64,000 nucleotides of DNA from assembly GCA_050950785.1 (NCBI GenBank), contig JBMNIG010000021.1, forward strand, positions 88,029 to 152,028. The letters run 5' to 3'. The translations under genes were made by a program, and so were the position numbers. Every line of letters starts with the position of its first letter. The stretch's first letter is position 1. Positions 33,109 through 57,458 of this stretch are shown piece after piece. The notes below the pieces were generated by a model that was given only the letters and a program-made list of their open reading frames with translations, had not been told where the DNA came from and ran no database searches. This DNA is from Eubacteriales bacterium (GTDB lineage Bacteria; Bacillota; Clostridia; Oscillospirales; JAAYOS01).

Positions 33109-33348
33109 TTGCAATCTCCTTTTTTCATATTTTATTTGTTTTTGATATTATCATAAAAAGCAAAATATTACAATTGATTCTTGCTTGATGTGCATATTTT
33201 TGCATATGTTTTTGTTGAGCTTAAGGCAATAATGTATAAATAAATAGATAAATCCCACCTTTTGACGCCTGAGATAAAATAGTGATATGCTTGTTTCAGA
33301 AAAGTAATGATGATATAATCTTTTCAAAATAAAACAGGAGTTGAAAAG

Positions 33349-34545: not shown

Positions 34546-34628
34546 TACACAAAAGTGTTCCAACTATGTACTGGCTTTGTATGGATGAGGGAGCTTGTTT
34601 GAGCCAAAGTTGATAGTTTGAATAGAAA

Positions 34629-34672
34629 ACACGCTGTATCCAAACCGACACAGTCGGCAAAATACAGCGTGT
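34629..34672 (+). terminator. Intrinsic terminator after the MFS gene
   Basis: Outer stem ACACGCTGTAT / ATACAGCGTGT with an inner CCGAC/GTCGG pairing, followed by CAATTTATTTTT. Confidence 0.6.
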
Positions 34673-34843
34673 CAATTTATTTTTACCTGTCAATGTAGAA
34701 GCCATTGAGAGGCGGTGAAGTATATAAATGAAAGCAGGTTGCAGACAAGTGCACCACCTGTATAAACGAGTTTCGAAGAAACTAATAAATTCTGTGACAA
34801 AGAAGCTATGGCAAATAAGAAAAGGATATCGAGTGTTGTAGCA

Positions 34844-37800
34844 CTACGACAGAAGCTCGAGAAGATCCTCTTTTGTCATGTCGATCAATGAAGCACCGGA
34901 GCTTTGCTCACTAATGATCGCATCCGCCAACTCCTTCTTAGACTGTTGCAGCTGCAAGATCTTTTCTTCAATACTGTCCTTAACTACCAGCTTGTAAACC
35001 TGCACATTCCGTTTTTGGCCTATGCGATGGGCCCGATCCGTTGCCTGATTCTGGGCGGCAACATTCCACCAGGGATCGTAATGTATGACCACGTCTGCAC
35101 CGATCAGATTCAAACCTGTGCCGCCTGCCTTAAGCGATATTAGGAACACTTGCGTTGCATCCCGGTTAAATCTCTCGACCATCTGAGCTCGATGCTCCTT
35201 TGAGGTGTCACCTTTCAATACATAGTAACTGAATCCTTCGCTGCTTAGTCTCTCCTCGATCTTTGTAAGCATTGATGTAAACTGCGAAAATAGAAGAACC
35301 TTATGTCCGCCTTCGGTGGATTCACGAATAAGCTCTAGGCATGTCTCCAACTTAGCACTCGATCCATCATAGTCCACATAGCAAAGACCCGGATCGCAAC
35401 ATATCTGTCTTAGCTTTGTAAGCATTGCGAGTATGTGGAAACGCTGTCGGGCGATGGCATCATCCCCCTGCTCCAATATCTGATTTCTGAGCAACATAGC
35501 GTTTGCAAGATATAATTTCCTCTGATCCCCCTCCATGGAAGCCTGAACAAGTGACTCCGATTTAGAAGGCAATTCGGATAGAACCTCGCCCTTTAGTCTG
35601 CGCAGTATAAACGGTCCTGTCATCTTTTTCAACAACTCGATGGCATAAGTATCACGATTTTTGACGATGGGAATCTCAAAGCGTTTTTTGAACTTATGAT
35701 AACTATATAGATAGCCGGGCATCAAGTAGTCAAAAATACTCCAAAGTTCACTTAACCTGTTCTCGATCGGAGTTCCGGTAAGTGCTAACCTGTGGTCGCT
35801 TTTAATAGCTTTGACCGATTTAGCATTTTGTGTGCTGTGATTTTTTATATATTGGGCCTCATCAATGATTTCATAGAGAAACTCCCTGCCCTCGTAGTGT
35901 TCAATATCCCGCTTAAGCATATCATATGACGTGATCAAGACGTCATAATGGTCCGCATCATCTATGATTTCTTTTCGCTCCGCATTATCCCCAATAACTG
36001 TAGCTACTTTTAGAGAGGGGGCAAAGCGCTGTATTTCACTCTCCCAGTTTAGAGCGAGAGAAGCTGGTGTCACCACAAGAGAGGGCCTGTTTATCTTTTC
36101 TTCCTTTACCGAAAGAAACAGGGCTATGACCTGCAGAGTCTTTCCAAGACCCATATCATCAGCTAAAATACCGCCAAGATTATACTTGGCAAGGGTCTTC
36201 AACCACCGATATCCCGTCTTTTGATAATTTCTCAAAATGCCCGCAAGGCTTTCGGGTACAGCAAGATCGCTGTCCTCAACTGATTTTATGTTTCTTACCA
36301 GATCCTTGAAAAAAGTATCTCTGTTGACACGTATTTCATCGTTATCACGAAGAACTCTATCGAGATATAGAGCTCTATACCGCGGCACAACTGCTTTTCC
36401 GCTTTGTAGCTGCTTATCAGTCAACTCAAGGCCGTCGGCCAACTGCGCCAATGCGTTAAGTGCATTATCCTCCAGTCTGAGATACCTGCCGTCGGACAGC
36501 CTGTAATATTTTCGATTTTCCCTGTATGCGTTTAGCGCACTTAGCAGTTCTTCAGCCGGAAACTCACCGGGCTCTATATCCAGTTCCAACAAATCGGAAA
36601 CAATGCGAACTCCTATAGAAACCTGCGGTGCTGTTGCGATACCGATCCGTTGTAAACGATCACTGACATGAACCGTCGCAACCTCCATCAGAGAAGGAAT
36701 TCCCTCGGAAATAAAGCGGTATATTTCTTCATCATCTGCTTCCAGCAAAAGTACTTGCCTGTTTGTGTCATATAGATGGATGTACTTGCTGATTATCACG
36801 CGAACAACCATTTCACTGCGAAGATCACGGCGCGCAATATCGGGAGACTTTCCGGCAAAATGCAGTGCATAGTAGTCGAATGCTTTATCACCATAGCGAT
36901 AGAGCATTGTGGCGGTTATGACGTTGTTTTCGGGCGCATCAATAAATATCTCGGTTTCAAGGGGCAGAGGCATAAATTCATCCAGGGTGCTGATATCTCC
37001 TGAAAAACGAAAACAGTTTTTGATCGCAGGATACACATTGGCACAAAATCTCGAAAGATCCTGTTTGGCAATACGCATTCTGAATGAACACTTCTCCATT
37101 GCTTTTAGGAAATCACGTGCTCTATCAGACAAATCCTGGTCACACCGGTATATAAAATCACCCAGCTGAATGTATATATGCTCCTCACCCGAAGCAAGTC
37201 CGAATTTCTCAGCTTCAAAAAGTATCGTTCCATCGCCCTGATCCTCAACACTGATATTGAGCTCAGGATTTTCAGCTATGACTGTTGCAAGTCTTTCCAT
37301 TTCAGAACCAAGTGAGGCTGTGATCTTCTCTCCGATGTACATTGACAGAAGCCTATCAAGAGCGTAGGGGGACAGCCTCAGGTGACGCTTGTCCATATGT
37401 GATTCACGCCAGTTCGAGCTGCCAAGGGTACGTGCAAGCAGGCGGACTTCATCACATTTTTCCATGATAAACTGCATCAGTTGCTTTGATTTGTCGTTAA
37501 AGCTGTCAATGCTGTGAATAAACTCTAACTGCTTCCCATATGAGACCTTATTTAATGATTTGACATTCTCAACCAGTTCAAATACATTTCGCACGACATA
37601 CTGCCGACTTATACCTATAGTAAACTCAACAAGTGTTACATCATCTTTACTTTGCCTGACAATAGGAGTCAAAGTCACCTTCTCCACATCAGAAAAGCTC
37701 TGTCCTACGACCTCGGCATTTTCACGCATGGCGTATTTGTTCATCATAAGGCGTGCCACACCATCGGTTGAAGGTCTTTTGACAACAAGCCCACCTTTAT

Positions 37801-38191
37801 TGTGGATATTGCTTGCTCTCTTTTGAGTGCTTCCCGCACCCTGAAGTATATCGAAATCCCTATCACTGGGCTTGGATTTACTCTGTAAGGAAGACGCATA
37901 CTTGCCTTGATACTGTTGGATCAAAACAGCAACGATATGCTTACATGCGCCTGACCTTTTACTATACGCAGGACATGAGCAGTGGGCCGATCTAAAATCC
38001 TCCTGCTCATCAAGTCGGACAGAAACATTATAAAGGTTTTTACCCTGTACTACGGCCGATATCTCTTTTCCATCCTCTGTGTGATTGGACTCGTATTTTT
38101 TGATATTCTGATCATAGTAATATCGAAGTCCTTTATGATACGTCCTCTGATCCGATGCGGCGAGGAGTATTTTTTCCATTGTAAGTGCCAT
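34844..38191 (-). CDS. SNF2-family helicase with N-terminal SWIM zinc finger
   Basis: 1115-aa ORF. It has the SWIM motif CSCPAYSKRSGACKHIVAVL, SNF2_N motifs (ILADDMGLGKTLQ, DEAQYIKN, LTGTPIEN) and helicase C motifs (LISLKAGGTGLNL, DPWWNVAAQNQATDRAHRIGQ). Confidence 0.9.
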   Translation of the reverse strand: MALTMEKILLAASDQRTYHKGLRYYYDQNIKKYESNHTEDGKEISAVVQGKNLYNVSVRLDEQEDFRSAHCSCPAYSKRSGACKHIVAVLIQQYQGKYASSLQSKSKPSDRDFDILQGAGSTQKRASNIHNKGGLVVKRPSTDGVARLMMNKYAMRENAEVVGQSFSDVEKVTLTPIVRQSKDDVTLVEFTIGISRQYVVRNVFELVENVKSLNKVSYGKQLEFIHSIDSFNDKSKQLMQFIMEKCDEVRLLARTLGSSNWRESHMDKRHLRLSPYALDRLLSMYIGEKITASLGSEMERLATVIAENPELNISVEDQGDGTILFEAEKFGLASGEEHIYIQLGDFIYRCDQDLSDRARDFLKAMEKCSFRMRIAKQDLSRFCANVYPAIKNCFRFSGDISTLDEFMPLPLETEIFIDAPENNVITATMLYRYGDKAFDYYALHFAGKSPDIARRDLRSEMVVRVIISKYIHLYDTNRQVLLLEADDEEIYRFISEGIPSLMEVATVHVSDRLQRIGIATAPQVSIGVRIVSDLLELDIEPGEFPAEELLSALNAYRENRKYYRLSDGRYLRLEDNALNALAQLADGLELTDKQLQSGKAVVPRYRALYLDRVLRDNDEIRVNRDTFFKDLVRNIKSVEDSDLAVPESLAGILRNYQKTGYRWLKTLAKYNLGGILADDMGLGKTLQVIALFLSVKEEKINRPSLVVTPASLALNWESEIQRFAPSLKVATVIGDNAERKEIIDDADHYDVLITSYDMLKRDIEHYEGREFLYEIIDEAQYIKNHSTQNAKSVKAIKSDHRLALTGTPIENRLSELWSIFDYLMPGYLYSYHKFKKRFEIPIVKNRDTYAIELLKKMTGPFILRRLKGEVLSELPSKSESLVQASMEGDQRKLYLANAMLLRNQILEQGDDAIARQRFHILAMLTKLRQICCDPGLCYVDYDGSSAKLETCLELIRESTEGGHKVLLFSQFTSMLTKIEERLSSEGFSYYVLKGDTSKEHRAQMVERFNRDATQVFLISLKAGGTGLNLIGADVVIHYDPWWNVAAQNQATDRAHRIGQKRNVQVYKLVVKDSIEEKILQLQQSKKELADAIISEQSSGASLIDMTKEDLLELLS

Positions 38192-38296
38192 AGATATTAC
38201 TCCTGAATCTATTCCTAATTAAAAACTATTTTTTTATAGCAATATAGCATTCTATCATTATACTATGAACCTCATAAGATGTAAAGTGCCGCCCTA

Positions 38297-38995
38297 TCAA
38301 TGCATTTGCTCCTTTTCAAACTCTTTACGTAGCTTTTCAAGGGCTTTTTTCTCAATTCTTGATACATATGAGCGGGATATGTTACATCTAGAAGCAATCT
38401 CTCTTTGTGTCATAGGCGCTTGGTTGTTTAGTCCGTAGCGCAGTATAACAATTTCTTTTTCCCGGTCATCTAAACATCTGTTTATGTATTTCATAAGCGT
38501 CTCACTCATTTCCTCCCTGTTGAGACGGTCAAGTATCTCTTCACCATCATCGCTAAGGGTGTCACCCAGTACAAGTACATTGCCGTCACCGTCGCTCTCA
38601 AGTGCTTCCGACATGAGCAGCTCACCGGACGACTTTTTCTGACTTCTGAAGTACATCAAAACCTCATTTTCGATGCACCTGCCCGCGTAAGTGGCAAGCC
38701 TTATATTCTTGCTGCTGTCAAAAGTATTTACTGCTTTGATAAGTCCGATCGTGCCAATAGAAATAAGATCCTCCTGTTCCTTGGCTGCCGTATAGTATTT
38801 TTTTATTACATGTGCAACTAACCTCAAATTCCGCTCAATTAGGATGTCCCTTGCCTTCTTGTCTCCCTCGGCTGCAAGCTTGATATATTTCTCCTCCTCT
38901 TCTTCGCTTAACGGACGAGGGAATGAGCCACCTCCGGACACCCGGAGCATCATATGTAAACCATGGAGTAAAAGATAAACTGTCAACGGCAGCAT
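38297..38995 (-). CDS. sigK: Sporulation sigma factor pro-SigK, uninterrupted
   Basis: 232-aa ORF. SFPRPLSEEEEEKYIKLAAEGDKKARDILIERNLRLVAHVIKKY and ISRSYVSRIEKKAL match the B. subtilis SigK pattern (AFPQPLS..HNLRLVAHIVKKF, ISRSYVSRIEKRAL) rather than SigE. A hydrophobic pro-sequence is present. Confidence 0.85.
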   Translation of the reverse strand: MLPLTVYLLLHGLHMMLRVSGGGSFPRPLSEEEEEKYIKLAAEGDKKARDILIERNLRLVAHVIKKYYTAAKEQEDLISIGTIGLIKAVNTFDSSKNIRLATYAGRCIENEVLMYFRSQKKSSGELLMSEALESDGDGNVLVLGDTLSDDGEEILDRLNREEMSETLMKYINRCLDDREKEIVILRYGLNNQAPMTQREIASRCNISRSYVSRIEKKALEKLRKEFEKEQMH

Positions 38996-39061
38996 TGCAA
39001 AACCCCCTATTAAAATCTATATGTGACAATACCTTTTTTAGTCTTATTGATTTCCATAAAG

Positions 39062-39301
39062 CACTCCCCTGGCTACCACGCCTTAATTGCCCGTTTAATG
39101 CCTTACAAAGAGCTCTAGCCAAACATACTGACAGCACCTGTGGCAGATGGTGTAGCGATGAGCGATAGTCTGCCAGCCAAAGTTTTATTTGCACTGTCTT
39201 AGGATGGGGTGATGGCACCCCTAACTTTGGATAGCTACGGATACAGGCAACGGACTTCCGACTACCACCAAAGAATCCCCTGGCTTTAGTCATTGGGAGC
39301 G
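39062..39301. ncRNA. Candidate structured RNA of unknown class (minus strand weakly favoured)
   Basis: Non-coding gap with nested perfect helices: 39141-39147/39169-39175 (7 bp), 39177-39184/39223-39230 (8 bp) and 39206-39211/39216-39221 (6 bp, tetraloop). A closing helix 39062-39068/39295-39301 gives 7 pairs only if read on the minus strand, where one G-U pair forms in place of the C-A mismatch on plus. Confidence 0.3.
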
Positions 39302-39449
39302 TCAAACGCATCAATTCCGCTTTACCATATTATGCAGAAATGCCGTAAGTTGTGATAAAAAAGTAATTATATTCTAAATCAAGGCTTGACTTAAACCTAA
39401 CTCTAGCATATATACTAAGACTAATAATACATATCATGGAGGCGGGGAA

Positions 39450-40595
39450 ATGATTTATCGCGAAATAGGCAGGACGGGGAAAAAGGCAGGCATAATTGGG
39501 CTTGGTTGCGAACATCTGGATGGCAAGCCGTATGAACAGGTGAAAGAAACTATACATACTGCGCTAGATCATGGGATAAACCACTTTGATGTGTTCATGC
39601 CCGGCAAAGAAATACGCGAAAACATCGCAAAGGCATTGGGTAGCAAGCGAAAAGATGTATATATCCAGGGACATATTGGCTCCACAGACGTAAATCAGCA
39701 GTATGATATCAGCCGCGATATGAAAACCGTGCGAAAATACTTTGAAGACTGCCTTCGCATATTTGGTGGTTATATCGATTTTGGAATGCTGTTTTTCATT
39801 GACTCCGAGGAGGAATTTGACAAAGTATTTAACGGAGGACTTGCTGACTATGCCCTGCAGCTTAAGCAAAACGGCGACATAGGTCACATTGGTTTTAGCT
39901 CGCACAGACCACAGATTGCAAGAAAAGTCGTTGAAACCGGCATTGTAGAAGCAATGTTATTTAGCATCAACTTGGCTTTTGACTTGACTCCGGTGGAGCA
40001 GTACGCCCTTGATGGATTAGGCAAAGGATTTGATGCTAGTAGTTTTCACGGACTTGACCCCGAGCGTGCCGCTTTGTACACACTCTGCGAAAAGGAAGGC
40101 GTCGGGATCAGCGTCATGAAGACACTGGGCGCAGGCAAGCTCATCTCCAAGGAGCATACACCATTTTCAAAACCTATGACTGTCAATCAGTGTATTCACT
40201 ATGCCCTCAGCCGTCCTGCTGTGTTCAGTGCCCTTCTCGGTTGCCAGACCGGCAATGAAGTTCTTGACGCGCTTAAGTATCTTGATGCCAGCGAAGAAGA
40301 AAAGGACTATACCCAGTTCATCGGCGAACTTCAGAACGACTTTAGCGAGCGCTGTGTCTATTGTAGTCACTGTCAGCCTTGCCCTGAAGAAATCGATATT
40401 GCCACAGTAAACAAATATTTGGACATCGCTATGCTTGATGTGGGTAATATCAGCCCCTCTATCCGATCACATTATGAAAGCCTTGGGCGCCACGGTAGCG
40501 ACTGCATTTCCTGTGGTCACTGCGAAAGCCGCTGTCCCTTTGATGTGCCAATCATAGAAAATATGCAAAAGGCAGCACAGCTTTTTGGAGTATAG
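39450..40595 (+). CDS. Aldo/keto reductase with C-terminal 4Fe-4S ferredoxin domain
   Basis: 381-aa ORF with RBS GGAGG. The AKR N-terminus is YREIGRTGKKAGIIGLGCEHL. The C-terminal Cys clusters are CVYCSHCQPCPEE and CISCGHCESRCP. Confidence 0.85.
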   Translation: MIYREIGRTGKKAGIIGLGCEHLDGKPYEQVKETIHTALDHGINHFDVFMPGKEIRENIAKALGSKRKDVYIQGHIGSTDVNQQYDISRDMKTVRKYFEDCLRIFGGYIDFGMLFFIDSEEEFDKVFNGGLADYALQLKQNGDIGHIGFSSHRPQIARKVVETGIVEAMLFSINLAFDLTPVEQYALDGLGKGFDASSFHGLDPERAALYTLCEKEGVGISVMKTLGAGKLISKEHTPFSKPMTVNQCIHYALSRPAVFSALLGCQTGNEVLDALKYLDASEEEKDYTQFIGELQNDFSERCVYCSHCQPCPEEIDIATVNKYLDIAMLDVGNISPSIRSHYESLGRHGSDCISCGHCESRCPFDVPIIENMQKAAQLFGV

Positions 40596-40627
40596 TTGTT
40601 TTATGATCTAGTCTACACAACAAAACT

Positions 40628-40653
40628 GCGCCGAACCTTGATTGGTTCGGCGC
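40628..40653. terminator. Bidirectional intrinsic terminator
   Basis: 10-bp perfect GC-rich stem GCGCCGAACC / GGTTCGGCGC with a 6-nt loop. T-rich sequence follows on the minus strand. Confidence 0.65.
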
Positions 40654-40803
40654 GTAATAATTTACTTTATAAGTATATTTACTTTTATATGGATCCTTTG
40701 CCGCTTTCCCAAATTCTACGATATTTCCCACGACTTGCTGTTGTGAAAGCGGTAATTCTCTATGTTGGCAATGATCACAAAGTGCGCGTGCAAGTTTGCG
40801 ACT

Positions 40804-42333
40804 TTATAATACTGCCAGCTCTTTATACCTGTCTTTTAATGAAGTATATAAACTTTGATAAAGTTTGTGGTACTCTGCATATTTGACCGTGTTTTCAGAG
40901 ATTGGATCTTGTTGAGGATTCGACTTTACCATAACTTCACATGCGGTCTTGACATCAGGATATATTCCGGTACCGACTGCAGCCAAGATCGCAACACCCA
41001 GAGCCGGGCCTTCCTTTGATTTGACAGTACGTACAGGACAACCGTACACATCGGCCATCATTTGGCGCCAGAGAGGACTAGTTCCACCGCCACCACAGGC
41101 ATACATCTCGCTAAATTCAACGCCCATCTCCCGCAATATGTCGTAGCAGTCTTTAAGTGAGTATGTAACGCCCTCCATGACTGCCCGAATCATGTCTTTT
41201 GCGAGTGTGGATGGCAGAAAGCCCAAAGAAAACACCTCTGCAATCGGGGTCAAGGTGCGGGGTCCGCTCTCCCATCAAATACGGAAGATATATGATGCGA
41301 TTTGCACCAACCGGAACCTCAGCCGCTTTCTCATCCATGACTACAAAGGGATCAACCCCGCGCTTCTCAGCCTCTACTCTTTCGATACTACAGAAGTTGT
41401 TGCGGAACCACTGAAGTGAAAGACCTGCTCCCTGTGTTACACCCATTACATGCCATGCACCCGGAACAGCGCAGCAGAAAGTGTGGACTCGCCCTTCTTT
41501 GTCTATCGATATGTTTATCAGTATGCGCATAGACAACGCCACTAGTTCCTATAGTCGTAAACGCACTTCCATCGGTGACAACACCAGTGCCTACTGCAGC
41601 TGCTGCGTTATCCCCTGCGCCTCCGACAACAGGTGGTAGAGACAGCAAGGCCGGTAGCTTTAGCAGCTTCTTCTGTAACATAACCTGTTATTTCAACCGA
41701 CTCATACACCTTCCCCAGCATTGCCGGATCAATTTCCAGAGCCTGCAGCACTTCGTCAGACCAACAGCGGTTTGGTACATCTAACAACTGCATTCCGCTT
41801 GCGTCTGAAACTTCCGTTGCATACTCGCCGGTCAGACGGAACCTCAAATAGTCCTTGGGAAGCAGGATATGCCTACATTTTGCGTAGACTTCAGGCTCAT
41901 TGTTACGAACCCAAAGTATTTTCGAGGCAGTAAATCCTGTAAGAGCCGGATTGGCAGTTATTTCGATCAGCCGTTCCTTGCCCACACGGCGATGGATCTC
42001 ATCACACTCGGCCGCTGTCCGCTGGTCACACCAAATAATGCTACGCCGCAGCGGTCCTTTTCGACTCGTCTAGCATTACCAGACCATGCATCTGTCCTGA
42101 AATGCCAATGCCAGCTATATCTGCAGGACCGATACCCGAATCGGTGATGACAGCTCGAATCGTCTCGAATGCAGCATTTATCCAATCCTCTGGATCCTGC
42201 TCGGCCCATCCGTTATGGTGGCTGATACATTGGGGTATTCCACAGTAGAGGACGAAATGGGCGCACCTGCCGAATCGAACAAAACCGTCTTAGTTCCGCT
42301 TGTACCCAGATCAATTCCAAGCAAATACTTCAT
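40804..42333 (-). pseudogene. xylB: Xylulokinase, disrupted by at least 6 single-nt indels
   Basis: Five overlapping ORF fragments in different frames tile a complete FGGY kinase. It runs from MKYLLGIDLGTSGTKTVLFD (start 42333) through ..HNGWAEQDPEDW.., ..RRSIIWCDQRTAAECDEI.., ..GGAGDNAAAAVGTG.. and ..LPYLMGERTPHLDP.. to ..YACGGGGTSPLWRQMMADV... Frame switches fall near 42231, 42218, 42058-42061, 41630-41650, 41500-41515 and 41197-41200. Confidence 0.85.
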
Positions 42334-42338
42334 TTCGT

Positions 42339-43660
42339 TCACCTAAACAAGACGGAGTTGACAATGCTTTCCAGATACTCAATGCGGCCTGAGCCGGGGG
42401 TATCGGGCTTTCCGAGCTTCTCAGCATATTCTGCCAGCTCTTCAAGTGTCGCCTCTCCGGATACGATTTTCGCACCTATTCCACTGTTATAGCTTGAGTA
42501 CCTGTCAGCAATGAACCTGATCGATCCGCCCATCTTCTATTATTGCAGCAGCTTTAATAAGTCCAAGGGCAAAGCTATCCATTCCAAGGATATATCCGTA
42601 GAACATGTCCTCAACAGTATTTGACGAGCGGCGGTTTTTTTTGCGGTCAAAGTTCAGTCCTCCGCGGAGTCCTCCCGCCTTTAGGACCTCGTACATGCAC
42701 ATTGTGGTCTCATATACATCAAATGGGAATTCGTCTGTGTCCCCAACCTAAAAGGAGATCCCCCTGATTGGCAACGATGCTTCCAAGCATATCGTTGATC
42801 GCTGCTGTTCTCAACTCATGCTGGAATGTGTGACCTGCTAGTGTTGCGTGGTTTGCTTCAATGTTGATTTTGAAAATCTTTGTCAAGGCCGTATTGACGA
42901 AGGAAAACCGATTGCTGTGGCAGTATCAAAGTCATACTGATGCTTCATTGGCTCCTTCGGCTTTGGCTCTATCAAAAAGTCCCCTTCAAATCCGATGCTG
43001 CGACCATAATCAACAGCCATCTTCATCAGCCGGGCGATATTGTCAAGCTCAAGTTTCATATCTGTGTTAAGAAGTGTTTCATAGCCTTCACGACCACCCC
43101 AGAACACATATCCGCGCCCACCTAATTTGACTGTGATATCAAGCGCCTTCTTTATTTGTGCAGCAGCAAAGCAGAACACATCCGCCGAGTTTGAAGTACC
43201 CGCTCCGTTCATGAATCTCGGGTTGCTAAACAGATTTGCGGTACCCCAAAGGCATTTCTTACCGGTCTGCTTCATCTTCTCAAGGATATGATCACTGATT
43301 TCGTCTAGACGCGCATTTGTTTCGGCGATGGTGTCTGCCTCGGGAACAAGATCCACATCGTGGAAGCAAAAATACTCAACGGCCGAGTTTATCCATAAAC
43401 TCAAAACCTGCATCCACTTTTGCCTTTGCATGTTCCATTGTGTCCGGTTTTGCTCCAAAGGACTTATCGGCTGTGTCTCTGCCGAACATGTCGGTTCCGG
43501 CGGCGCCAAGATTGTGCCACCACGCCATTGCAAATGGTAGATGCTCGCGCATAGGCTTGCCCATGATCACTCGATCCGGATCGTAATACTTGAATGCCAA
43601 TGGATTTTTGCTGTCCGGACCTTCGTATTTGATTTTTGGTATCGAATCAAAATAGCTCAT
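42339..43660 (-). pseudogene. xylA: Xylose isomerase, disrupted by at least 5 single-nt indels
   Basis: The fragments tile a full class-II XylA: [27 protein letters not shown].., ..[11 protein letters not shown].., ..[21 protein letters not shown].., ..[18 protein letters not shown].., ..[18 protein letters not shown].., ..LGWDTDEFP.., ..FIADRYSSY... Frame switches fall near 43381-43384, 42905, 42868, 42741-42744 and 42515-42518. Confidence 0.9.
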
Positions 43661-43697
43661 TACTTAATCCTCCCTGATATTGTGTTGGTATATAAAA

Positions 43698-44204
43698 TCA
43701 AGGCCTAATGGCCGTATTCTCAAAATCACATGCGGTCTCAAGAATTTTTACCAATGCTTCAAGCCCGGATCTGTCATCCTCATCAAAGCGATTGAATTGT
43801 GGACTGTCAATATCGAGTACACCGATCACCTTGCCATCATTTCGAATAGGAACTACGATTCTGAATTTGATGCACTATCACATGCTATATGACCCGGAAA
43901 TTTATGAACATCTTCAACTAACTGGGTCCTATTCTCAGCCACCGCTGTCCGCAAACGCCTTTACCCACCGCAATACGAATGCAGGCTGTTTTTCCTTGGA
44001 AAGGGCATAGCACAAGCTCGCCGTTGTGCATCAAATAGAACCCACCCAATTTATATCGCGAAGTGCATTAAACAGGAGAGCTGAAGCATTGCTCAAATTC
44101 GAAAGATAGAATGTTTCACCATCCGTCAATGCTTTTAATTGTTGCGCCAGCAGGTCATATAGTTCCTTTTTGTTTTCGGGGTACGTTGTCTGATGTAATT
44201 CCAT
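43698..44204 (-). pseudogene. GAF-domain protein (free methionine-R-sulfoxide reductase / YebR-like), 3 single-nt deletions
   Basis: Hand translation from the ATG at 44204 gives [55 protein letters not shown]. The reading continues only after frame changes: [31 protein letters not shown], then [30 protein letters not shown], then IVVPIRNDGKVIGVLDIDSPQFNRFDEDD... Switches fall near 44038-44041, 43947-43950 and 43858-43862. The layout parallels E. coli YebR. Confidence 0.75.
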
Positions 44205-44326
44205 ACTGTTATCTCTTTAGCACTACCAGATAATTAGCTGTGCGTATAATTTATACGGTTATCGATCGTTTTGTATACGATATTCTCAACTTCCAGTTGG
44301 CTTCTATATGTTATAGGGAATCTCGG

Positions 44327-45371
44327 TCAAATGACCTTCAGTGATTTCAACCAGACTTTCACGAATCTTGATCTCGTTCCCAATATGAAACGTTCGGTTT
44401 CAGGCTCTGATCCACTGATATAATAGTCAAATGCTTTTTTTACCGCTTGATAACCTTGAGCCACCGGTTGCTGGCAAATCGTCGCCTTTATTATCCCACG
44501 TTCCACCATTTCCACCGTGGTTGGTATATCGTCAAATGATACTATGGTCATTTTCTCCTGACAGCCGTGTCGAAGCACCGCCCTGCAAACACCATACACT
44601 CCACCCGCTACTATAAAAATAGCATCCATCTCCGGGTGATTTTGCAGCATTTTGCTGGTTTCTTCATAGGCACAGATATCGTCATCATTGGTTTCAATAA
44701 TTCTAGCATCTTCAAGTCCGGGTACCTTGCTTTCATCACAGAGTGAAACCCCGCAATTCGCTGACTGTGGCCTAGCATCTTGTACGACCCCATAGCAACA
44801 CCGAAGTTTGCTTTGCCCCCTGTCCAGCAAAGCCATCATACCGCATGCAATCCCTCCGCTTTTCTTGTAGTCGCTACCTACATAACATAATCTGGAGCTG
44901 TTTTCAATATCGGTATTAAGAGCAATGGTAGGTATACCCTTTTGTTTGAGTGAGTCGATTTTTTCTGCAATCCTAATATCATTTATCGGAACCAATAACA
45001 GCATGCTTATTCGATCCTCAAACTCTTCTATGCACTTGAGCTGCTGGACAGGATCAAACCCTCTCATTGTCTTGATTTCAATTCTGACTCCAAAATCTCG
45101 AAGCTCATTTTCCGCATTGCGTATACCTATGATCACATCGTCAAAAAAAGCGTTTCCTTCGGATGGCAGCAACACACCAAAAAGGGGTGATTTCTTTCTA
45201 ACCGCAAGTGCTTTGCCGGCCAGATTCGGAGAATACCCTAGCTGCTGCGCCACCTTCCGTACCCGCTTCTCGGTATCCGCGATGGACATTTCCACGATTG
45301 TTGAGCACTCTATCTACCGTCCCACGGGAAACACCGCTTACCTCGGCAATCTTTTTTATCGTAACAGACAT
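44327..45371 (-). pseudogene. LacI-family transcriptional regulator, at least 3 frameshifts
   Basis: The HTH MSVTIKKIAEVSGVSRGTVDRVLNNRGNV starts at 45371 in a different frame from the 322-aa ORF body (SIADTEKRVRKVAQQLGYSPN..). An internal stretch of about 35 codons makes sense only in the frame of ORF 44611..44793 (GSYKMLGHSQRIAGFHSVMKARYPDLK). The C-terminal residues may also be out of frame. Confidence 0.75.
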
Positions 45372-45765
45372 CGGATCCTCCCACGGTTGTCTATATCATT
45401 ACAATGTGCTCGTGCACTATAGCTTGATTCATGGCTTATAATATCAAAATTGAGCCTTATTGTCAATTTTAAATGCATGAGTTCAGTAAGTTATCATAAT
45501 TAGATATTCCGAATTATATATTGATGATAAAAACTATCAATATTCGGATATTTGGACACAACGTTTTATTGACATTTAATGCTTATGATGGTATTGTAAA
45601 CTAAACAATTTTACTTATTTATATGCAGGATTCGTACAAGCTTATTATGAAGCTTGTGACCTTTTATTCGTCACTCACCATATACGAAGATTGATTATTA
45701 GTGCACGTGCACACACAAGAGTTTGTCTAGACAGTACACCATCTTTGAACAAGGGGGATAATGAC

Positions 45766-47841
45766 ATGAAATGCACAAAAGAGTATCGCTTGTCCTTTAC
45801 AGACAAAGCAAAAGAGCTCATTTCACAGATGAGCCTTGAAGAAAAAGTTCATTTGATGAGCGGTTGGATGAAGCCCGGAGATATTGGCGGAATAATGTCG
45901 GGAAGTGATCCTGCCATCCATTACAACCATATTCCATATGGAGCAGGCGGAAATGACAGGCTTGGAATTCCACCCGTTCTCTTCTGTGACGGTCCGCGTG
46001 GAGTGGTTTGCGGCACAGGCAAGAGTACATGTTTCCCTGTAACGATGCTGCGCGGAGCTACATTTGATACTGAGCTTGAAGAGAAAGTTGGCAGAGCTAT
46101 CGGACGTGAAATCAGAGCTTATGGCGGCAATTTCTTCGGTGGCGTCTGCATAAACCTGCCCATCAATCCGGGATGGGGCCGCAGCCAGGAAACTTACGGC
46201 GAGGACAGTTTTGCGATCGGACAGATGGGAGCATCCCTTACACGGGGCGTGCAGGAGGAAAATGTCATAGCTTGCGTCAAACACTATGCCTTCAACTCTA
46301 TGGAGATCAGTCGTTTTAAGTGCAGTGTTGATTGCGACAGACGCACAGAACGCGAAGTTTATCTCCCTCACTTTAAGGACTGTGTCGATGCCGGTGCCGC
46401 CAGCATAATGAGCGCGTACAATCTCTATAAGGGTACTCATTGCGGTCACAGCGACTACTTACTTAGAAAAGTCCTTAAAGAGGAGTGGGACTTTGACGGT
46501 TTCGTTATAAGTGACTTCATTTATGGAGTCAAGGATACCGTAGAGGGTGCAAATGGCGGCATGGACATAGAAATGTGCTGGACTTATCATTTTGGTGATA
46601 AACTTGTCGAAGCTGTAAAGGAAGGTCTAGTGCCTGAAGAGAGAATTGATGAAGCAGCATTGCGGATAGTCCGTACGATCCTTGCTTTCGAAGAAGCTTA
46701 TTCGTCAAGCGGCAAAAACTACAGCGAAGAAATAATTGGCTGTAAAGACCATATAAATCTTGCACTGGAAGCTGCACGCAAGGGTATAACCCTTCTCAAA
46801 AACGACGAAGTCCTCCCACTGGATAAAACGAAAACAAAGAAGATAGCGGTTATAGGAAAGCTTGCAGATAAAGCCAATATCGGTGATCATGGGTCAAGTC
46901 GTGTTTATCCTGCATATGTAGTTACTCCATTGGAAGGCTTACGTAAAATTGCGCCTGAAGTGAAAATCGTCTATTGTGACGGCAGCGACATTGAAGCTGC
47001 AAAGGTGGAAGCACGAAATGCGGATGCTGCAATTTTTGTCCTTGGATACCAGCACTCTGACGAAGGTGAATATGTCAGCCCACAAGGTCGTGAGAGTTAT
47101 ACCGGAGGAATGGGCGGGGACCGCAAAGATAGTCTCGGATTGCATGCTGAAGATATCAATCTCATTTATGAAATTGCACCTGAAAACAAGAACTCTGTAG
47201 TTGTTCTTATAGGCGGAAACATGATCATGATGACTGAGTGGATAGATAAGGTAAGCTCCGTGCTCATGGCTTACTATCCCGGCCAGGAGGGCGGCACAGC
47301 AATTGCCGAGATATTGTTTGGCAATGTCAATCCATCCGGCAAAATCCCATTTGTCATTCCGTATGAGGAAAGTGATCTGCCACAAGTAAACTGGGATACT
47401 ACAAACCAGTGGTATGACTATTATCACGGATACACAAGGCTTGAAAAGGAAGGCAAAAAACCTCTGCATCCTTACGGATTTGGTATGTCATATACTACTT
47501 TTGAGTATTTGGATCCTGTCTTCAGCGTGAAAGATGATAAGGTCGTGGCAAAGTGTACCGTAAAGAACACCGGCAAACTTGCAGGCGACGAGGTAGTGCA
47601 GCTCTATATTGGATTTAAGAATTCAGCCGTAGACCGCCCCGTCAAGTTGCTGCGAGGATTTAAACGCATTAGTTTGACACCGGGAGAAAGTGTACAAGTC
47701 GAGATAGGATGTCCAGTCGAAAAACTGAAATGGTATGACCCCAAAACTGCGGCTTTTGAACTTGAACATATGTCTTATGAGGTTTATATAGGCTCATCAT
47801 CTTCTGACAGCGACCTGCTTGCCGGATCCATCACTCTGTAA
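45766..47841 (+). CDS. Glycoside hydrolase family 3 (beta-glucosidase / beta-xylosidase)
   Basis: ORF 45691..47841 trimmed to the ATG at 45766 (GGGGGA upstream). It has the GH3 motifs KHYAFNSME and GFVISDF (nucleophile Asp context). C-terminal GH3_C and fibronectin-like domains are present. Confidence 0.9.
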   Translation: MKCTKEYRLSFTDKAKELISQMSLEEKVHLMSGWMKPGDIGGIMSGSDPAIHYNHIPYGAGGNDRLGIPPVLFCDGPRGVVCGTGKSTCFPVTMLRGATFDTELEEKVGRAIGREIRAYGGNFFGGVCINLPINPGWGRSQETYGEDSFAIGQMGASLTRGVQEENVIACVKHYAFNSMEISRFKCSVDCDRRTEREVYLPHFKDCVDAGAASIMSAYNLYKGTHCGHSDYLLRKVLKEEWDFDGFVISDFIYGVKDTVEGANGGMDIEMCWTYHFGDKLVEAVKEGLVPEERIDEAALRIVRTILAFEEAYSSSGKNYSEEIIGCKDHINLALEAARKGITLLKNDEVLPLDKTKTKKIAVIGKLADKANIGDHGSSRVYPAYVVTPLEGLRKIAPEVKIVYCDGSDIEAAKVEARNADAAIFVLGYQHSDEGEYVSPQGRESYTGGMGGDRKDSLGLHAEDINLIYEIAPENKNSVVVLIGGNMIMMTEWIDKVSSVLMAYYPGQEGGTAIAEILFGNVNPSGKIPFVIPYEESDLPQVNWDTTNQWYDYYHGYTRLEKEGKKPLHPYGFGMSYTTFEYLDPVFSVKDDKVVAKCTVKNTGKLAGDEVVQLYIGFKNSAVDRPVKLLRGFKRISLTPGESVQVEIGCPVEKLKWYDPKTAAFELEHMSYEVYIGSSSSDSDLLAGSITL

Positions 47842-47971
47842 AGTATTCTGCAAATACCTTGTCTGGACAAAAAGCTGAACAAGAATACAGGTACCATGTC
47901 CAGTTTTGAAAATCAAGTTGTTTGCGGACAAGGGAAAGGTACCATGTACATCTTCATAACAAAGTCGTTTA

Positions 47972-48009
47972 AAAGATAAATCAGGGCATCAAGCCCTGAT
48001 TTATCTTTT
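47972..48009. terminator. Bidirectional intrinsic terminator
   Basis: 16-bp perfect stem AAAGATAAATCAGGGC / GCCCTGATTTATCTTT with a 5-nt loop, between convergent genes. Confidence 0.7.
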
Positions 48010-48069
48010 CGTCAAAGTGATACGACTCCGGATATCAACGGACAAGGAACCTGCCCCCCTGTCCGCGAG

Positions 48070-48885
48070 TTAGATGTCAAGAATATGTCCGTCTGTCGAT
48101 ATGACAACTACTTGCCAAGGTAGCATTTTGCCACTCATTATAATGGCTTGCTGCACAGCTCTCTCAAGACCACCGCAACACGGCACTTCCATTCTGGCAA
48201 CTGTAACGCTTCTGATGTTGTTGTGCCTTATGATCTCACTCAGCTTCTCTGCGTAATCCCCCTCGTCCAGCTTAGGACAGCCTATGAGAGTAATTTTATT
48301 CTTCATAAACTCACTATGGAAATTTGCATAGGCATAGGCGGTGCAGTCTGCTGCTATAAGTAGCTTGGCTCCGTCAAAATACGGTGCTTTGACAGGCACA
48401 AGCTTTATTTGGACCGGCCACTGGCGCAGCTGAGATTCCTGCGGTGCATTGTTGGATGTCTCCAGAGAAGTATTAACCACATTTCTTCCCCTCTCAAATA
48501 CACGTGCACTTGATCCGGGACAGCCACATGGCAGCGGTGCTTTGCCGCCATCATTGTCATTGTCGTCCTTCGCATGCCCGGCACCTTGCTTGTGTGCGGG
48601 TGTGTCTTCACCTGATTTCACGCCCTTCTGTTCGTCAAGCCTCTGTTTGTTTTTCAAGACTTCTGCTTCATTGAACGGAAGAGCTTCTCTCACTTCAAAG
48701 GAAATTGCACCCGTTGGACAAGTAGGTAGGCAATCTCCTAGTCCGTCGCAGTAATCATCACGCAGTAGCTTTGCCTTTCCGTTTACCATACCTATGGCAC
48801 CTTCGTGGCAGGCATCTACACAAATGCCGCACCCGTTGCAAAGGTCTTCATCAATTTTTATTATTTTTCTAATCACAGGTCTCAC
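48070..48885 (-). CDS. 4Fe-4S dicluster domain protein
   Basis: 271-aa ORF. The N-terminal ferredoxin motifs are CNGCGICVDAC and CDGLGDCLPTCP. It also has a central CGCPGS motif and a conserved C-terminal domain with PCCGG. It is divergent from a Crp/Fnr regulator. Confidence 0.75.
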   Translation of the reverse strand: MRPVIRKIIKIDEDLCNGCGICVDACHEGAIGMVNGKAKLLRDDYCDGLGDCLPTCPTGAISFEVREALPFNEAEVLKNKQRLDEQKGVKSGEDTPAHKQGAGHAKDDNDNDGGKAPLPCGCPGSSARVFERGRNVVNTSLETSNNAPQESQLRQWPVQIKLVPVKAPYFDGAKLLIAADCTAYAYANFHSEFMKNKITLIGCPKLDEGDYAEKLSEIIRHNNIRSVTVARMEVPCCGGLERAVQQAIIMSGKMLPWQVVVISTDGHILDI

Positions 48886-49106
48886 CTCAAAAACTTTTTC
48901 ATTTGTTTGCTGATTTAATTATAATGAACAAACAAAGAAATGTTTGTTGCAATTGCAACGTAATTGTGCTAATATGAATAATATTTATTGTCCCGACAGC
49001 GGAACAACTTGTTAGCAACCTTTGAGTATACAATAATCCATATCTTGATTACAGATTTATTCGTATCTAAAGCATTAAGTAAAATTTTAGAAACGTGGTT
49101 GATAAA

Positions 49107-49925
49107 ATGAGCCAAAAAGATTATAATACGCACAATTATCATAACTCTGAAAATCTATATGATATATCTAACTCTACTATGAGTAAGCCTACTAAGTCTA
49201 TTGATACAGATTCTCATACACAGCCTGAGAGTGTACAACTCAGGCAGTTGATAAACTCGATAGACCATGCCGATATTGCGCTTTTTGACGGGATCGACAG
49301 CAGAAGTTTCAAATCACTTCTCCCCTGTCTAAATGCGGTAATTCGTAGCTATCTAAGGAATGAAGTCGTGTTGATGGCAGGCAGTCGCGCCGAGTGGATA
49401 GGTATTGTCCTTAAAGGGTCTGTGATGATTGTTAGAGAAGATATGTTTGGCAATAGAATAATCGTTGGAAACGCGGAGAAAAATGACATGTTTGCCGAGG
49501 TATACGCCTGTGCTTCTCCTAAGGATATCCCTATTTCAGTGGTTGCTACCGAAGATACCTCGATTCTGTGGATACATTTTCATAAAATTGCATCCACCTG
49601 TTCTTCGTCCTGCGCGTTTCATACAAAGCTGATTGAAAACATGATGAAAATCCTTGCTAATAAGAATATGTTACTAAACCGCAAAATCGATCACCTGTCA
49701 AAGAAGACTATTCGCGCAAAGTTGATGGCTTTTTTGATAGACCAGGCCGAGACCCACAAAAGTCTCACTTTCAATATTCCCTTCAGCAGAAACGAGCTAG
49801 CCGATTATCTGTGCATCGACCGGAGTGCCTTGTCCAGAGAGCTTGGTAAGATGCGCGATGAAGGGCTTTTGGATATGCATCGCAATTCATTTAAGATATT
49901 AAATCGCGAAAGCTTTCTAATGTAA
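49107..49925 (+). CDS. Crp/Fnr-family transcriptional regulator; start codon uncertain
   Basis: The cNMP-binding-like domain starts at about LFDGIDSRSFKSLL. The C-terminal HTH is SRNELADYLCIDRSALSRELGKMRDEG. No clear SD precedes any candidate start (GTG 49095, ATG 49107). Confidence 0.7.
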   Translation: MSQKDYNTHNYHNSENLYDISNSTMSKPTKSIDTDSHTQPESVQLRQLINSIDHADIALFDGIDSRSFKSLLPCLNAVIRSYLRNEVVLMAGSRAEWIGIVLKGSVMIVREDMFGNRIIVGNAEKNDMFAEVYACASPKDIPISVVATEDTSILWIHFHKIASTCSSSCAFHTKLIENMMKILANKNMLLNRKIDHLSKKTIRAKLMAFLIDQAETHKSLTFNIPFSRNELADYLCIDRSALSRELGKMRDEGLLDMHRNSFKILNRESFLM

Positions 49926-49947
49926 ATAATCACTTGAGGTGAAATAT

Positions 49948-50844
49948 ATGCATATTCTTGAGGTTAAAAATTTATCCAAGGGCTTTGGAAAAACACAAGT
50001 AATCAAAAATATTTCATTTACCGTCGAAGAGGGCGAAATCGTCGGATTCGTCGGCCCTAACGGTGCAGGTAAAACCACTACTCTAAAGCTTATTACAGAT
50101 TTGATACGTCCCGATGAGGGAGAAATCATCATCAATGGATACCCTCTTAAGAGACAGCGTGAGGCTGCTCTCGGAAGCCTTGCAGGTATCATCGAAAACC
50201 CTGGATTATATGTAAACCTGACGGGTTATGACAATCTATCCTTTATTGCCAAACTTCGGGGGATATCAAAGGAAAAACTTCAGCGTGCAATAGATATTAC
50301 TGGACTTGGGGATAATATACACCGCCAGGTGCGCAAATACTCACTTGGAATGAAACAGCGCCTTGCGCTCGGTATGTGCCTTATTACCGAGCCGAAGCTG
50401 CTCATCCTCGACGAACCTACAAATGGTCTTGATCCCACAGGAACCATGGAGTTGCGTGAGCTCATGTTAAGAATGGTTAATGAAGAGGGTGTATCGATAC
50501 TGTTTTCCTCCCATATGCTAGGTGAGGTCGAGAAAATTGCAGACAGGGTGCTTTACATAAAAGAAGGGGTCCTTTTAGACAAAACGGTACCGGTTTTTGA
50601 TTCCTACTTCACAATTGCTCTAAACGATCCTTCTGCCGCCGCTGCGCAGCTTGAAAGTGTTGACGGCGTTCTTTCTGCAAAGGTAGAAGGAAAGGATAGA
50701 CTGTCAGTTCATCTTCGCGAAGGCGCACTTTCCGAAGTTCTGAAAGTCCTTACAGAGAAGAACATACCAATACACGACATCACAAAACAGCAAGACGATC
50801 TTGAGATGATTTATAACAGGATCTTCAGGAGTGTCGAGTCATGA
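49948..50844 (+). CDS. ABC transporter ATP-binding protein (ABC-2 subfamily)
   Basis: ORF 49939..50844 trimmed to the ATG at 49948 behind GAGGTG. It has Walker A GPNGAGKTT, signature YSLGMKQR and Walker B LLILDEPTNGLD. Confidence 0.9.
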   Translation: MHILEVKNLSKGFGKTQVIKNISFTVEEGEIVGFVGPNGAGKTTTLKLITDLIRPDEGEIIINGYPLKRQREAALGSLAGIIENPGLYVNLTGYDNLSFIAKLRGISKEKLQRAIDITGLGDNIHRQVRKYSLGMKQRLALGMCLITEPKLLILDEPTNGLDPTGTMELRELMLRMVNEEGVSILFSSHMLGEVEKIADRVLYIKEGVLLDKTVPVFDSYFTIALNDPSAAAAQLESVDGVLSAKVEGKDRLSVHLREGALSEVLKVLTEKNIPIHDITKQQDDLEMIYNRIFRSVES

Positions 50845-52025
50845 GAAAGCTTATTCTTTTTGAGTTGAAAAAGCAGTTCACCTCTGTCAAAAACCTGGTT
50901 GTATGGTTGCTCTTACTTGTTACACTGCTTACATACGGATCTATTAATATGGCAAGAGATTTAAGTTACAGAAAAATGCGCCTTAGCTACGATGGCAGCG
51001 CATGGGATGCATCAATTCAGTTGAATCTGCTCCTTCAAACATATCCTAAAAATCCTCCGGAAAGCATTCAAAAGGCCATGGACCTGTGGCGCAGGGACGC
51101 AGTCTATTCTGCCCAGCAGCGCGTCTTTGCCTCATGGGTAGGTGAGGATCGCTGGCGGGATGTGGTTTTGGCTAACATCAACCGCAATGAGAATATACTA
51201 CAAGGCCTCCAGGAAGGGATCATATCCGGAAAGTCAAAGGCAGAGGGCGGAGTTTCTGAATCCGACTTGATCAATAACATCAATTACAACAAATATTTCT
51301 ATGAAAATGACATAAAGCCACTACGTAATGTCTATCAGATGACCGGTATCAATTTTTTGTATCGCGTCCTTTCAGAACTGATGCCATATCTTGCTGCAGT
51401 TGTGATCTTGCTGTTGTGCAGCGATTGTTTTGCCTCCGAGGTAGACTGGGGCAGCTATAAATTCCTTCTACTTCAGCCCTATCCCCGTAGAAAGTTTTTC
51501 ACCGCCAAGGTATTGTCCAGCCTGCTGCTCGCATTGATCGTAATGGGTAGCTCCCTTACGATCGTGTACGCAATTATGTCCGCACTGAACGGAACCGGGA
51601 GTGCAAATTACCCTATCGCCTTTGATCCTAATGCATTTTCCTCATTCGCAGTAACACCCCAGAGCGAAATATTGGTTTATTTAGGCGCCGGTAAGTTCCT
51701 TCTCTACGCCTTTATACTCTTCCTGCTTTATCTCGTGTTCCTTACTGCGTTTGCATGTCTTGCATCGGTTCTGTCTCAGGAAAGCCTCAACGCTATGACT
51801 GTATCAATAAGCATAATTTTTGCGGCTGCGGTTTTACAATCTCCCATTAGTCGGATGCCACAACTCTCACTTTTCTGGCCATTTTCATACGGAAATGCGG
51901 TTACAGTGATGACCGGGAGCGCTGCCGGTTCAATGCTTGCGGGCTTTATAGTGTTTGCCTGTGTCAGCGTGTTGTTGGTGCTGATAAGCCGCATCATCTT
52001 TAACAAAAAAGACATCATCTGCTAA
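50841..52025 (+). CDS. ABC-2 type transporter permease (paralogue 1)
   Basis: 394-aa ORF whose start overlaps the ATPase stop (ATGA). It has an N-terminal TM, a large extracytoplasmic domain and then 5 TM segments. It shares GSYKFLLLQP and the C-terminal ..KKDIIC with the next gene. Confidence 0.7.
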   Translation: MRKLILFELKKQFTSVKNLVVWLLLLVTLLTYGSINMARDLSYRKMRLSYDGSAWDASIQLNLLLQTYPKNPPESIQKAMDLWRRDAVYSAQQRVFASWVGEDRWRDVVLANINRNENILQGLQEGIISGKSKAEGGVSESDLINNINYNKYFYENDIKPLRNVYQMTGINFLYRVLSELMPYLAAVVILLLCSDCFASEVDWGSYKFLLLQPYPRRKFFTAKVLSSLLLALIVMGSSLTIVYAIMSALNGTGSANYPIAFDPNAFSSFAVTPQSEILVYLGAGKFLLYAFILFLLYLVFLTAFACLASVLSQESLNAMTVSISIIFAAAVLQSPISRMPQLSLFWPFSYGNAVTVMTGSAAGSMLAGFIVFACVSVLLVLISRIIFNKKDIIC

Positions 52026-52039
52026 ATCGGGAGGTCAAC

Positions 52040-57444: not shown

Positions 57445-57458
57445 CAGGGTGTAGTGAT

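What the first reader, a model, noticed from the sequence alone, without database searches (positions are those of the whole stretch)
40804..45371. Four consecutive genes carry at least 17 single-nucleotide indels while 59 kb of flanking coding sequence is clean
Seen in sequence by hand translation: xylB has at least 6 indels, xylA at least 5, the GAF/fRMsr-like gene 3 and the LacI-type regulator at least 3. Each gene can be read end to end as a normal-length, well-conserved protein only by switching frame at 1-nt insertions or deletions. Most of these sit in or next to short homopolymers. Examples: CCCAATG where CCCATG is expected, AAAAGAC where AAAGAC is expected, TGGGGAC where TGGGAC is expected, GGGTTCT where GGGTTTCT is expected. 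I saw no large deletions. The premature stops I saw are all explained by frame shifts rather than by substitutions. Neighbouring large genes (GH78 1144 aa, SNF2 1115 aa, GH3 716 aa, AKR 381 aa) are intact right up to the block edges at about 40.6 and 45.4 kb. That is about one indel per 270 bp, confined to a 4.6-kb co-directional unit. Inference: there are two readings. One is a local sequencing or consensus artefact, such as a low-coverage or long-read-only patch. The other is a genuine, recently inactivated xylose-utilisation locus decaying by slippage. An indel-only pattern favours an artefact, but its sharp restriction to one functional unit is odd for random error.
Basis: partly seen in the sequence, partly recalled or inferred. 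Interest (0 to 1): 0.6.

Follow-up and report, generated by a model that had tools for sequence, protein, structure and literature searches.

The report
Assembly-error patch across a xylose operon
The many one-base frameshifts in the xylose-utilisation genes are almost certainly consensus errors in this metagenome-assembled genome: independent assemblies of the same organism have all four genes intact, and the same genome has at least three more such noisy patches.

Summary
xylB, xylA, a GAF-domain gene and a LacI-type regulator on the minus strand are each broken by 1-nt indels. A 99.75%-identical contig from another metagenome (L009) gives the exact count: 23 indel events (24 letters), all between 41197 and 45554, and none in the other 14.8 kb aligned. 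The biology is not real. L009 and contigs from four further studies all carry the intact version and agree at every indel site shown for them. No public run holds the window's version. The patch does not follow the operon. The last 393 nt of xylB are clean, and 3 events lie in non-coding spacers, two of them beyond LacI. Of 56 inserted letters in two patches, 52 duplicate a neighbouring base, mostly in runs of 1-3. Insertions outnumber deletions 56 to 8, which is a run-length miscounting pattern and not slippage or pseudogene decay. The same genome has three more patches with about 40-50 indels each, all at contig ends (C25, C10, C11). The C25 patch breaks sbcCD, oadB and feoB. The best explanation is a low-depth, unpolished, long-read-type consensus. 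Interest is low, but the genome's gene calls and pseudogene counts need caution.

The parts
41197..45554 (.). Noisy consensus patch of 4358 nt. It holds 23 one-base indel events (24 letters: 18 extra, 6 missing) and 15 of the 24 substitutions seen against conspecific contig L009. The signs come in blocks: 13 events that are all extra (41197-43381), 6 all missing (43858-44700), 4 all extra (44824-45554).
   Evidence: The same sites are seen in Logan contigs of runs from four different studies.
40804..42333 (-). xylB (xylulokinase), broken by 6 spurious extra bases. The 3' 393 nt (40804-41196) are clean. The intact conspecific copy is 507 aa.
   Evidence: The intact L009 protein hits TIGR01312 XylB at 571 bits against a cut-off of 380.
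42339..43660 (-). xylA (xylose isomerase), broken by 8 extra letters in 7 events. The intact conspecific copy is 437 aa.
   Evidence: The intact L009 protein hits TIGR02630 at 699 bits against a cut-off of 533.
43698..44204 (-). GAF-domain protein gene (169 aa when intact), broken by 3 missing bases.
   Evidence: (Pfam GAF, GAF_2). It is intact and in the same position in same-genus relative G002.
44304..45371 (-). LacI-family regulator gene (355 aa when intact), with 2 missing and 2 extra bases.
45372..45765 (.). LacI-GH3 intergenic spacer. It carries two of the spurious extra bases (45529, 45554), which shows that the patch ignores gene boundaries.

Best explanation
The indels are errors in the deposited consensus of this metagenome-assembled genome, not mutations. 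The organism is an uncultured Clostridiales/Bacillota bacterium from anaerobic digesters. Its genome here is 2.54 Mb in 29 contigs. It has an ordinary, intact lacI-GAF-xylA-xylB locus. Window 41197-45554 is a stretch whose consensus has only about Q21-22 accuracy (roughly 0.6-0.9% differences), embedded in sequence that matches independent assemblies at about 99.95%. What is shown: the differences are specific to this assembly; they are run-length miscounts; they ignore gene boundaries; and equivalent patches exist at three contig ends in the same genome. What is inferred: the patches are places where the assembler's consensus rested on one or very few single-molecule (long) reads, or on a long-read bridge between short-read contigs, and polishing did not reach them. 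The patch is also richer in substitutions than its flanks. Short-read assemblies of other samples break inside or next to it, and part of xylA is shared at high depth with other community members. This offers a possible reason (inference) why coverage or polishing failed just here. The sequencing platform cannot be determined from the sequence.
For: (1): JGI contig L009 has the same gene order with intact XylB (507 aa), XylA (437), GAF (169) and LacI (355). One search confirms XylB and XylA above the curated cut-offs. (2): L009 is 99.75% identical over 19.1 kb, and all 24 indel letters fall in 41197-45554. (3): Logan contigs from four different studies (anaerobic digester, bioreactor, biogas fermenter, 'metagenome') agree with each other against the window at nearly every indel site the tool listed (all four at most, three of four at 42056, 42641 and 45529). 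(4): the best public runs hold at most 0.79 and 0.73 of the window's 31-mers across the patch. For the 6-kb query, 0.79 is about what is expected if every run lacks the window-specific differences, so no indexed run carries the frameshifted version. (5): 52 of 56 inserted letters duplicate a neighbouring base, against 44% expected by chance, mostly in true runs of 1-3. All 8 deletions shorten runs of 2-3. Insertions outnumber deletions 56 to 8. All are 1 nt, apart from one 2-nt event. (6): 3 of 23 events are in spacers, which make up 7% of the patch. The 3' end of xylB is clean. (7) Other patches were found with a frame-switch HMM and then verified. C25:115015-123305 has 40 indels (38 extra) against two JGI contigs, and sbcC, sbcD, oadB, feoB and other genes that are intact in L022 lie within it. 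The C10 3' end has about 50 and the C11 3' end about 49. All three run to a contig end. HMM events are about 1.8 times enriched in the terminal 8 kb of contigs. (8): same-genus relative G002 keeps the intact locus. (9) The literature describes exactly this class of artefact. [quoted passage not shown] PMC9262707 reports that short-read polishing has been needed to remove homopolymer indels. Both are quoted from their abstracts.
Against: I could not see the reads from which this genome was assembled, so the platform and local depth are inferred. Most miscounts are in very short runs (1-3) and are insertions, whereas the best-known nanopore error is deletion in long homopolymers, so the exact error process is unclear. 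Five of the 9 substitutions unique to the window are synonymous, more than random error predicts. Part of the patch's divergence is therefore probably real strain variation, which means the underlying molecule may come from a slightly different strain. Logan contigs 'show presence, not absence', so a rare frameshifted strain cannot be formally excluded.
Confidence: 0.93

Rival explanations
1. Genuine recent pseudogenisation: the strain behind this genome lost xylose utilisation, and the four genes are decaying through slippage indels.
For: The indels are in the deposited sequence. The patch covers roughly one co-directional sugar-utilisation unit. Substitutions are also enriched in the patch (15 of 24; a count of 16 of 24 over 41197-45606 gave p = 7e-6), and some are synonymous, as in real divergence.
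Against: Indel events outnumber substitutions by about 1.5 to 1. Every event is 1 nt except one 2-nt event, and insertions outnumber deletions 3 to 1. Established knowledge of bacterial pseudogenes is that they accumulate more substitutions than indels, with a deletion bias and variable sizes. Most sites are runs of 1-3 bases, where slippage is rare. The edges do not match the gene edges and spacers are hit. Three more patches at contig ends break unrelated genes. No public run from about 19 studies carries the alleles, while five independent assemblies have intact genes.
Confidence: 0.04
2. An artefact of another kind: a chimeric or merged consensus of co-existing strains or of several assemblies (for example bin refinement, contig merging or mis-polishing), rather than low-depth long-read consensus.
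For: The population is microdiverse here. Short-read contigs break at 42926-42952 and 45424-45657, and alternative 112-nt bubble contigs exist. Part of xylA is shared at up to 154x depth with other organisms. Some window-unique substitutions look like real strain SNPs. The indel signs come in blocks (+13/-6/+4; runs test p = 2e-4), as if different sources were stitched together.
Against: Merging error-free short-read haplotypes should give substitutions and multi-nt differences, not dozens of single-base duplications that no haplotype in any run carries. Noisy contig ends are more typical of single-read overhangs in long-read assemblies. That last point rests on my own knowledge.
Confidence: 0.1
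3. Real localised hypermutation, such as tracts of error-prone repair synthesis, in the source strain.
For: Indels and substitutions are clustered in tracts of 3-11 kb.
Against: Three of the four tracts end exactly at assembly contig ends, which is a property of the assembly and not of a chromosome. The spectrum is dominated by +1 duplications of a neighbouring base. There is no support in any independent data set.
Confidence: 0.01

Closest known systems
Indel or frameshift errors in long-read or hybrid (meta)genome assemblies that were incompletely polished
   Same: One-base run-length miscounts split conserved genes into several ORFs. They are clustered where depth or polishing is poor, including contig ends. 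They are absent from short-read assemblies of the same organism. This is the problem described in 10.1101/2021.08.23.457338 and PMC9262707 (abstracts).
   Different: The miscounts are mostly insertions in very short runs (1-3 nt), not deletions in long homopolymers. The rest of the genome is of short-read-like accuracy, so the noise comes in patches and not across the whole genome. The platform is unknown.
Bacterial pseudogene decay in a dispensable catabolic operon
   Same: Several adjacent genes of one pathway are interrupted while the neighbours are intact.
   Different: The indel spectrum, the mismatch with gene boundaries, the presence of similar patches at contig ends and the lack of support in independent data all argue against it.
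Canonical Firmicutes-type xylAB locus with a LacI-family regulator
   Same: The true locus, as in L009 and in relative G002, encodes xylose isomerase, xylulokinase and a LacI-type regulator. It sits next to GH3 and GH78 glycosidase genes.
   Different: A small GAF-domain gene lies between the regulator and xylA. This arrangement is conserved within the genus. Nothing else is unusual.

Membership tests
Assembly or consensus artefact (unpolished long-read-type patch) | The differences are absent from independent assemblies or reads of the same organism | tested here: met
   L009 and Logan contigs from four studies lack the indels: all 24 letters are absent from L009, and nearly every site listed is absent from the four runs. 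No run holds the window's version.
Assembly or consensus artefact (unpolished long-read-type patch) | The error spectrum is dominated by single-base run-length miscounts | tested here: met
   Of 56 inserted letters, 52 duplicate a neighbour, against 44% by chance. All 8 deletions shorten a run. Every event is 1 nt except one 2-nt event.
Assembly or consensus artefact (unpolished long-read-type patch) | The distribution is independent of gene boundaries and function, and recurs elsewhere in the assembly, especially at contig ends | tested here: met
   Spacers are hit and the 3' end of xylB is spared. Three further patches at the 3' ends of contigs C25, C10 and C11 were verified.
Assembly or consensus artefact (unpolished long-read-type patch) | Low depth, or long-read-only support, in the assembly's own reads over the patch | not testable with these tools
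   The source reads of this genome could not be identified or laid. All runs served were Logan contigs from other or unknown samples.
Genuine pseudogene cluster | The inactivating mutations are reproducible in independent sequence data of the strain or population | tested here: not met
   None of the 33 runs listed, from about 19 studies, carries them. The four runs laid and the JGI contig L009 all show intact frames.
Genuine pseudogene cluster | The mutational spectrum is typical of neutral decay: substitutions at least as common as indels, a deletion bias, variable indel sizes, some nonsense changes | tested here: not met
   There are 23 indel events against 15 substitutions. Extra letters outnumber missing ones 18 to 6. 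No nonsense substitution was found.
XylA / XylB (identity of the underlying genes) | Full-length match above the curated NCBIfam equivalog cut-off | tested here: met
   The intact conspecific proteins score 699 bits on TIGR02630 (cut-off 533) and 571 bits on TIGR01312 (cut-off 380).

The most novel reading that the evidence does not exclude
The source strain really carries tracts of 3-11 kb of dense +1 and -1 mutations, some form of localised error-prone synthesis or hypermutation. One tract would have inactivated its xylose operon, while the wider population keeps intact alleles.
Probability: 0.02. Interest if true: 0.7.

Novelty: not a real feature. Interest (0 to 1): 0.07.

Why it matters
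This matters only as a quality warning. The genome is a species representative in a public taxonomy. Its noisy patches would be read as pseudogenes, or as a missing pathway: no xylose use, no SbcCD, no FeoB, no OadB. They also lower completeness estimates, split proteins in databases and create spurious 'frameshift' findings in scans such as this one. Other windows of the same genome have already produced such notes. The organism itself should be scored as having an intact xylAB locus.

Tried and rejected
(1) tblastn with the relative's proteins merged several frames into low-identity segments and undercounted frame changes. I replaced it with a DNA alignment to a conspecific contig. (2) Programmed frameshifting or phase variation was rejected. 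There are 23 sites without long repeat tracts or slippery motifs, 3 of them non-coding, and none is present in other samples. (3) An alternative genetic code was rejected because the problem is frame shifts, not in-frame stops. (4) The frame-switch HMM I wrote is crude. It found only 5-7 of the 23-50 true events per patch, and it gives about 1 false event per 10 kb: the events it called at 13408, 14814 and 19122 have no indel in the runs. I used it only to nominate patches, which were then verified independently. (5) I looked for the genome's own record name through genome contigs. Its record is withheld, and only relatives were returned (Clostridiales MAGs AS21ysBPME_78 and AS20ysBPTH_165). 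(6) No runs of N and no composition break mark the patch.
Full report
THE OBSERVATION

The minus strand between 40804 and 45371 has no long ORF, only overlapping fragments in all three frames. tblastn with the intact proteins of a same-genus relative showed that the fragments are pieces of four genes in the same order as in that relative. The relative is G002, at 81% DNA identity, and the genes are xylB, xylA, a GAF-domain gene and a LacI-type regulator.

For an exact count I looked up the neighbouring intact aldo-keto reductase (39450-40592) in public assemblies. This returned L009, a JGI metagenome contig with identical gene order. In L009 all four genes are intact: 507, 437, 169 and 355 aa. 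XylB and XylA in L009 score above the NCBIfam equivalog cut-offs.

L009 aligns to window 31487-50607 at 99.75% identity. All 24 indel letters (23 events) fall between 41197 and 45554, and none falls in the remaining 14.8 kb.

Counts per gene:
- xylB: 6 extra letters.
- xylA: 8 extra letters in 7 events.
- GAF: 3 missing letters.
- LacI: 2 missing and 2 extra.
- Spacers: 3 events, at 44214, 45529 and 45554.

There is no large deletion and no nonsense substitution.

The flanks were checked against contigs of four runs from four different studies. Window 45555-64000 has no indel at all. Windows 1-20000 and 20001-32000 have only three sites where at least 3 of 4 runs disagree with the window. These are 642, 10493 (2 nt) and 20513, which lies inside an IS element.

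IS IT REAL BIOLOGY?

Five independent lines say no.

(a) Independent data. Logan contigs from an anaerobic-digester study, a bioreactor study, a biogas-fermenter study and a further metagenome study agree with each other and with L009 against the window at nearly every indel site listed: all four at most sites, three of four at 42056, 42641 and 45529. The best public holders reach only 0.79 of the 31-mers over 40000-46000 and 0.73 over 42190-42920. For the 6-kb query, 0.79 is about the share expected if every run lacks the roughly 40 window-specific differences. No indexed run carries the frameshifted version.

(b) Spectrum (using this patch and the C25 patch).
- 52 of 56 inserted letters duplicate an adjacent base, against 44% expected by chance.
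- Most lie in true runs of only 1-3 bases.
- All 8 deletions shorten a 2-3 run.
- Insertions outnumber deletions 56 to 8.
- All events are 1 nt except one 2-nt event.

From established knowledge, replication slippage concentrates in long homopolymers, and bacterial pseudogenes show a deletion bias, variable indel sizes and more substitutions than indels. Here there are 23 indel events against 15 substitutions.

(c) Geometry. The patch is a physical tract, not a functional unit. It starts 393 nt inside xylB and ends 183 nt beyond the LacI start codon. It hits spacers at least in proportion to their length: 3 of 23 events, in 7% of the tract.

(d) Recurrence. A six-frame coding HMM that counts unterminated same-strand frame switches ranked this patch first in the genome and nominated others. 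Three were checked and all were confirmed.
- C25:115015-123305 has 40 indels (38 extra) against two JGI contigs from different samples. Within it lie sbcC, sbcD, oadB, an Fe-dependent-repressor/acetyltransferase gene, feoB and feoA, all of which are intact in L022.
- The last ~3.3 kb of C10 carry about 50 indels.
- The last ~11 kb of C11 carry about 49.

All three patches run to a contig end, which is a property of an assembly and not of a chromosome. HMM events are about 1.8 times enriched in the terminal 8 kb of contigs overall. Earlier first-stage notes on other windows of this genome also list clustered 1-nt frameshifts, in greA/TrmH/dprA and in CNNM/GldG/IS6. I did not test those.

(e) Relatives keep the locus intact.

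MOST LIKELY MECHANISM (INFERENCE)

The patch differs from the population consensus at roughly 0.6-0.9% of positions, while the flanks differ at about 0.05%. Accuracy of about Q21-22 in tracts of 3-11 kb, sited at contig ends and at one internal position, is what I would expect in two situations. One is a consensus that rests on one or a few single-molecule reads, either overhangs at contig ends or a thin bridge internally. The other is long-read gap filling in a hybrid assembly that short-read polishing did not reach.

The indel signs come in blocks: 13 extra, then 6 missing, then 4 extra (runs test p = 2e-4). This fits a stitch of a few individual reads, each with its own bias.

There is also a possible reason for the location. 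Short-read assemblies of other samples break at 42926-42952 and around 45424-45657, and alternative bubble contigs exist there. Part of xylA is shared at up to 154x depth with other community members. The patch is richer in substitutions than its flanks, and 5 of the 9 substitutions unique to the window are synonymous, so some are probably true strain SNPs. A strain-variable locus that cross-maps to other organisms is where graph-based assembly and read-mapping polishers fail. I could not identify the platform. The insertion bias in very short runs is not the textbook nanopore pattern.

COMPARISON WITH WHAT IS KNOWN

This is the well-described problem of indel-induced frameshifts in long-read or hybrid (meta)genome assemblies (10.1101/2021.08.23.457338 and PMC9262707, abstracts seen). 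The underlying locus is an ordinary lacI-GAF-xylA-xylB cluster of an uncultured digester Clostridiales bacterium. Its relatives include MAGs AS21ysBPME_78 and AS20ysBPTH_165.

VERDICT

The feature is an assembly artefact (confidence about 0.93). A real decay or hypermutation reading keeps about 5% in total. Interest is low. The practical value is a warning that this species-representative genome contains several kilobase-scale noisy patches that mimic pseudogenes.

Noticed in passing
window 19630-20950; also L020:13480-14819 (= G000:C11 about 89480-90818): An IS30-like element (HTH_38 plus rve integrase core) is present at about 10 times the depth of the surrounding genome in all four runs. 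The copy in the window has one consensus extra base at 20513, where two of its ORF fragments meet. The C11 copy is skipped by the contigs of runs X1 and X5, so that insertion is polymorphic in the population.
   Followed up: partly
G000:C10:126000-142347 (L021): This contig end lies at 20-67x depth in runs where the rest of the genome is at about 7-13x (compared). It may be a multicopy or mobile element or a mis-binned contig. It also carries the densest indel patch, about 50 in 3.3 kb.
   Followed up: no
window 41197-45554: The sign of the indels comes in blocks: 13 events all extra, then 6 all missing, then 4 all extra (runs test p = 2e-4). I read this as a stitch of a few individual reads, but that is not proven.
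   Followed up: partly
window 41346-45170: Nine substitutions are unique to the window against L009 and all four runs. Five of them are synonymous third-position changes, more than random error predicts. The patch may derive from a slightly different strain haplotype.
   Followed up: partly
window 642 and 10493: These are isolated consensus indels outside the patch: 1 nt at 642 and 2 nt at 10493. Each is seen in 3 of 4 runs, with the fourth run agreeing with the window. They may be real polymorphisms or single errors.
   Followed up: no
window 10459-10893 and 21581-23727: Run X1 alone shows dense clusters of substitutions here. This looks like a strain-specific recombined or divergent segment in that sample.
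   Followed up: no
G000: both ends of C1, C5 5' end, C14 3' end, C24:36-43 kb, C27:31-36 kb, C23:4-9 kb: The frame-switch HMM nominated these as further candidate noisy patches. None was verified against independent contigs.
   Followed up: no
window 43698-44204; L002:818-1327: A 169-aa GAF-domain protein gene sits between the LacI-type regulator and xylA, both here and in the same-genus relative. The arrangement is conserved but its role in the locus is unknown.
   Followed up: no
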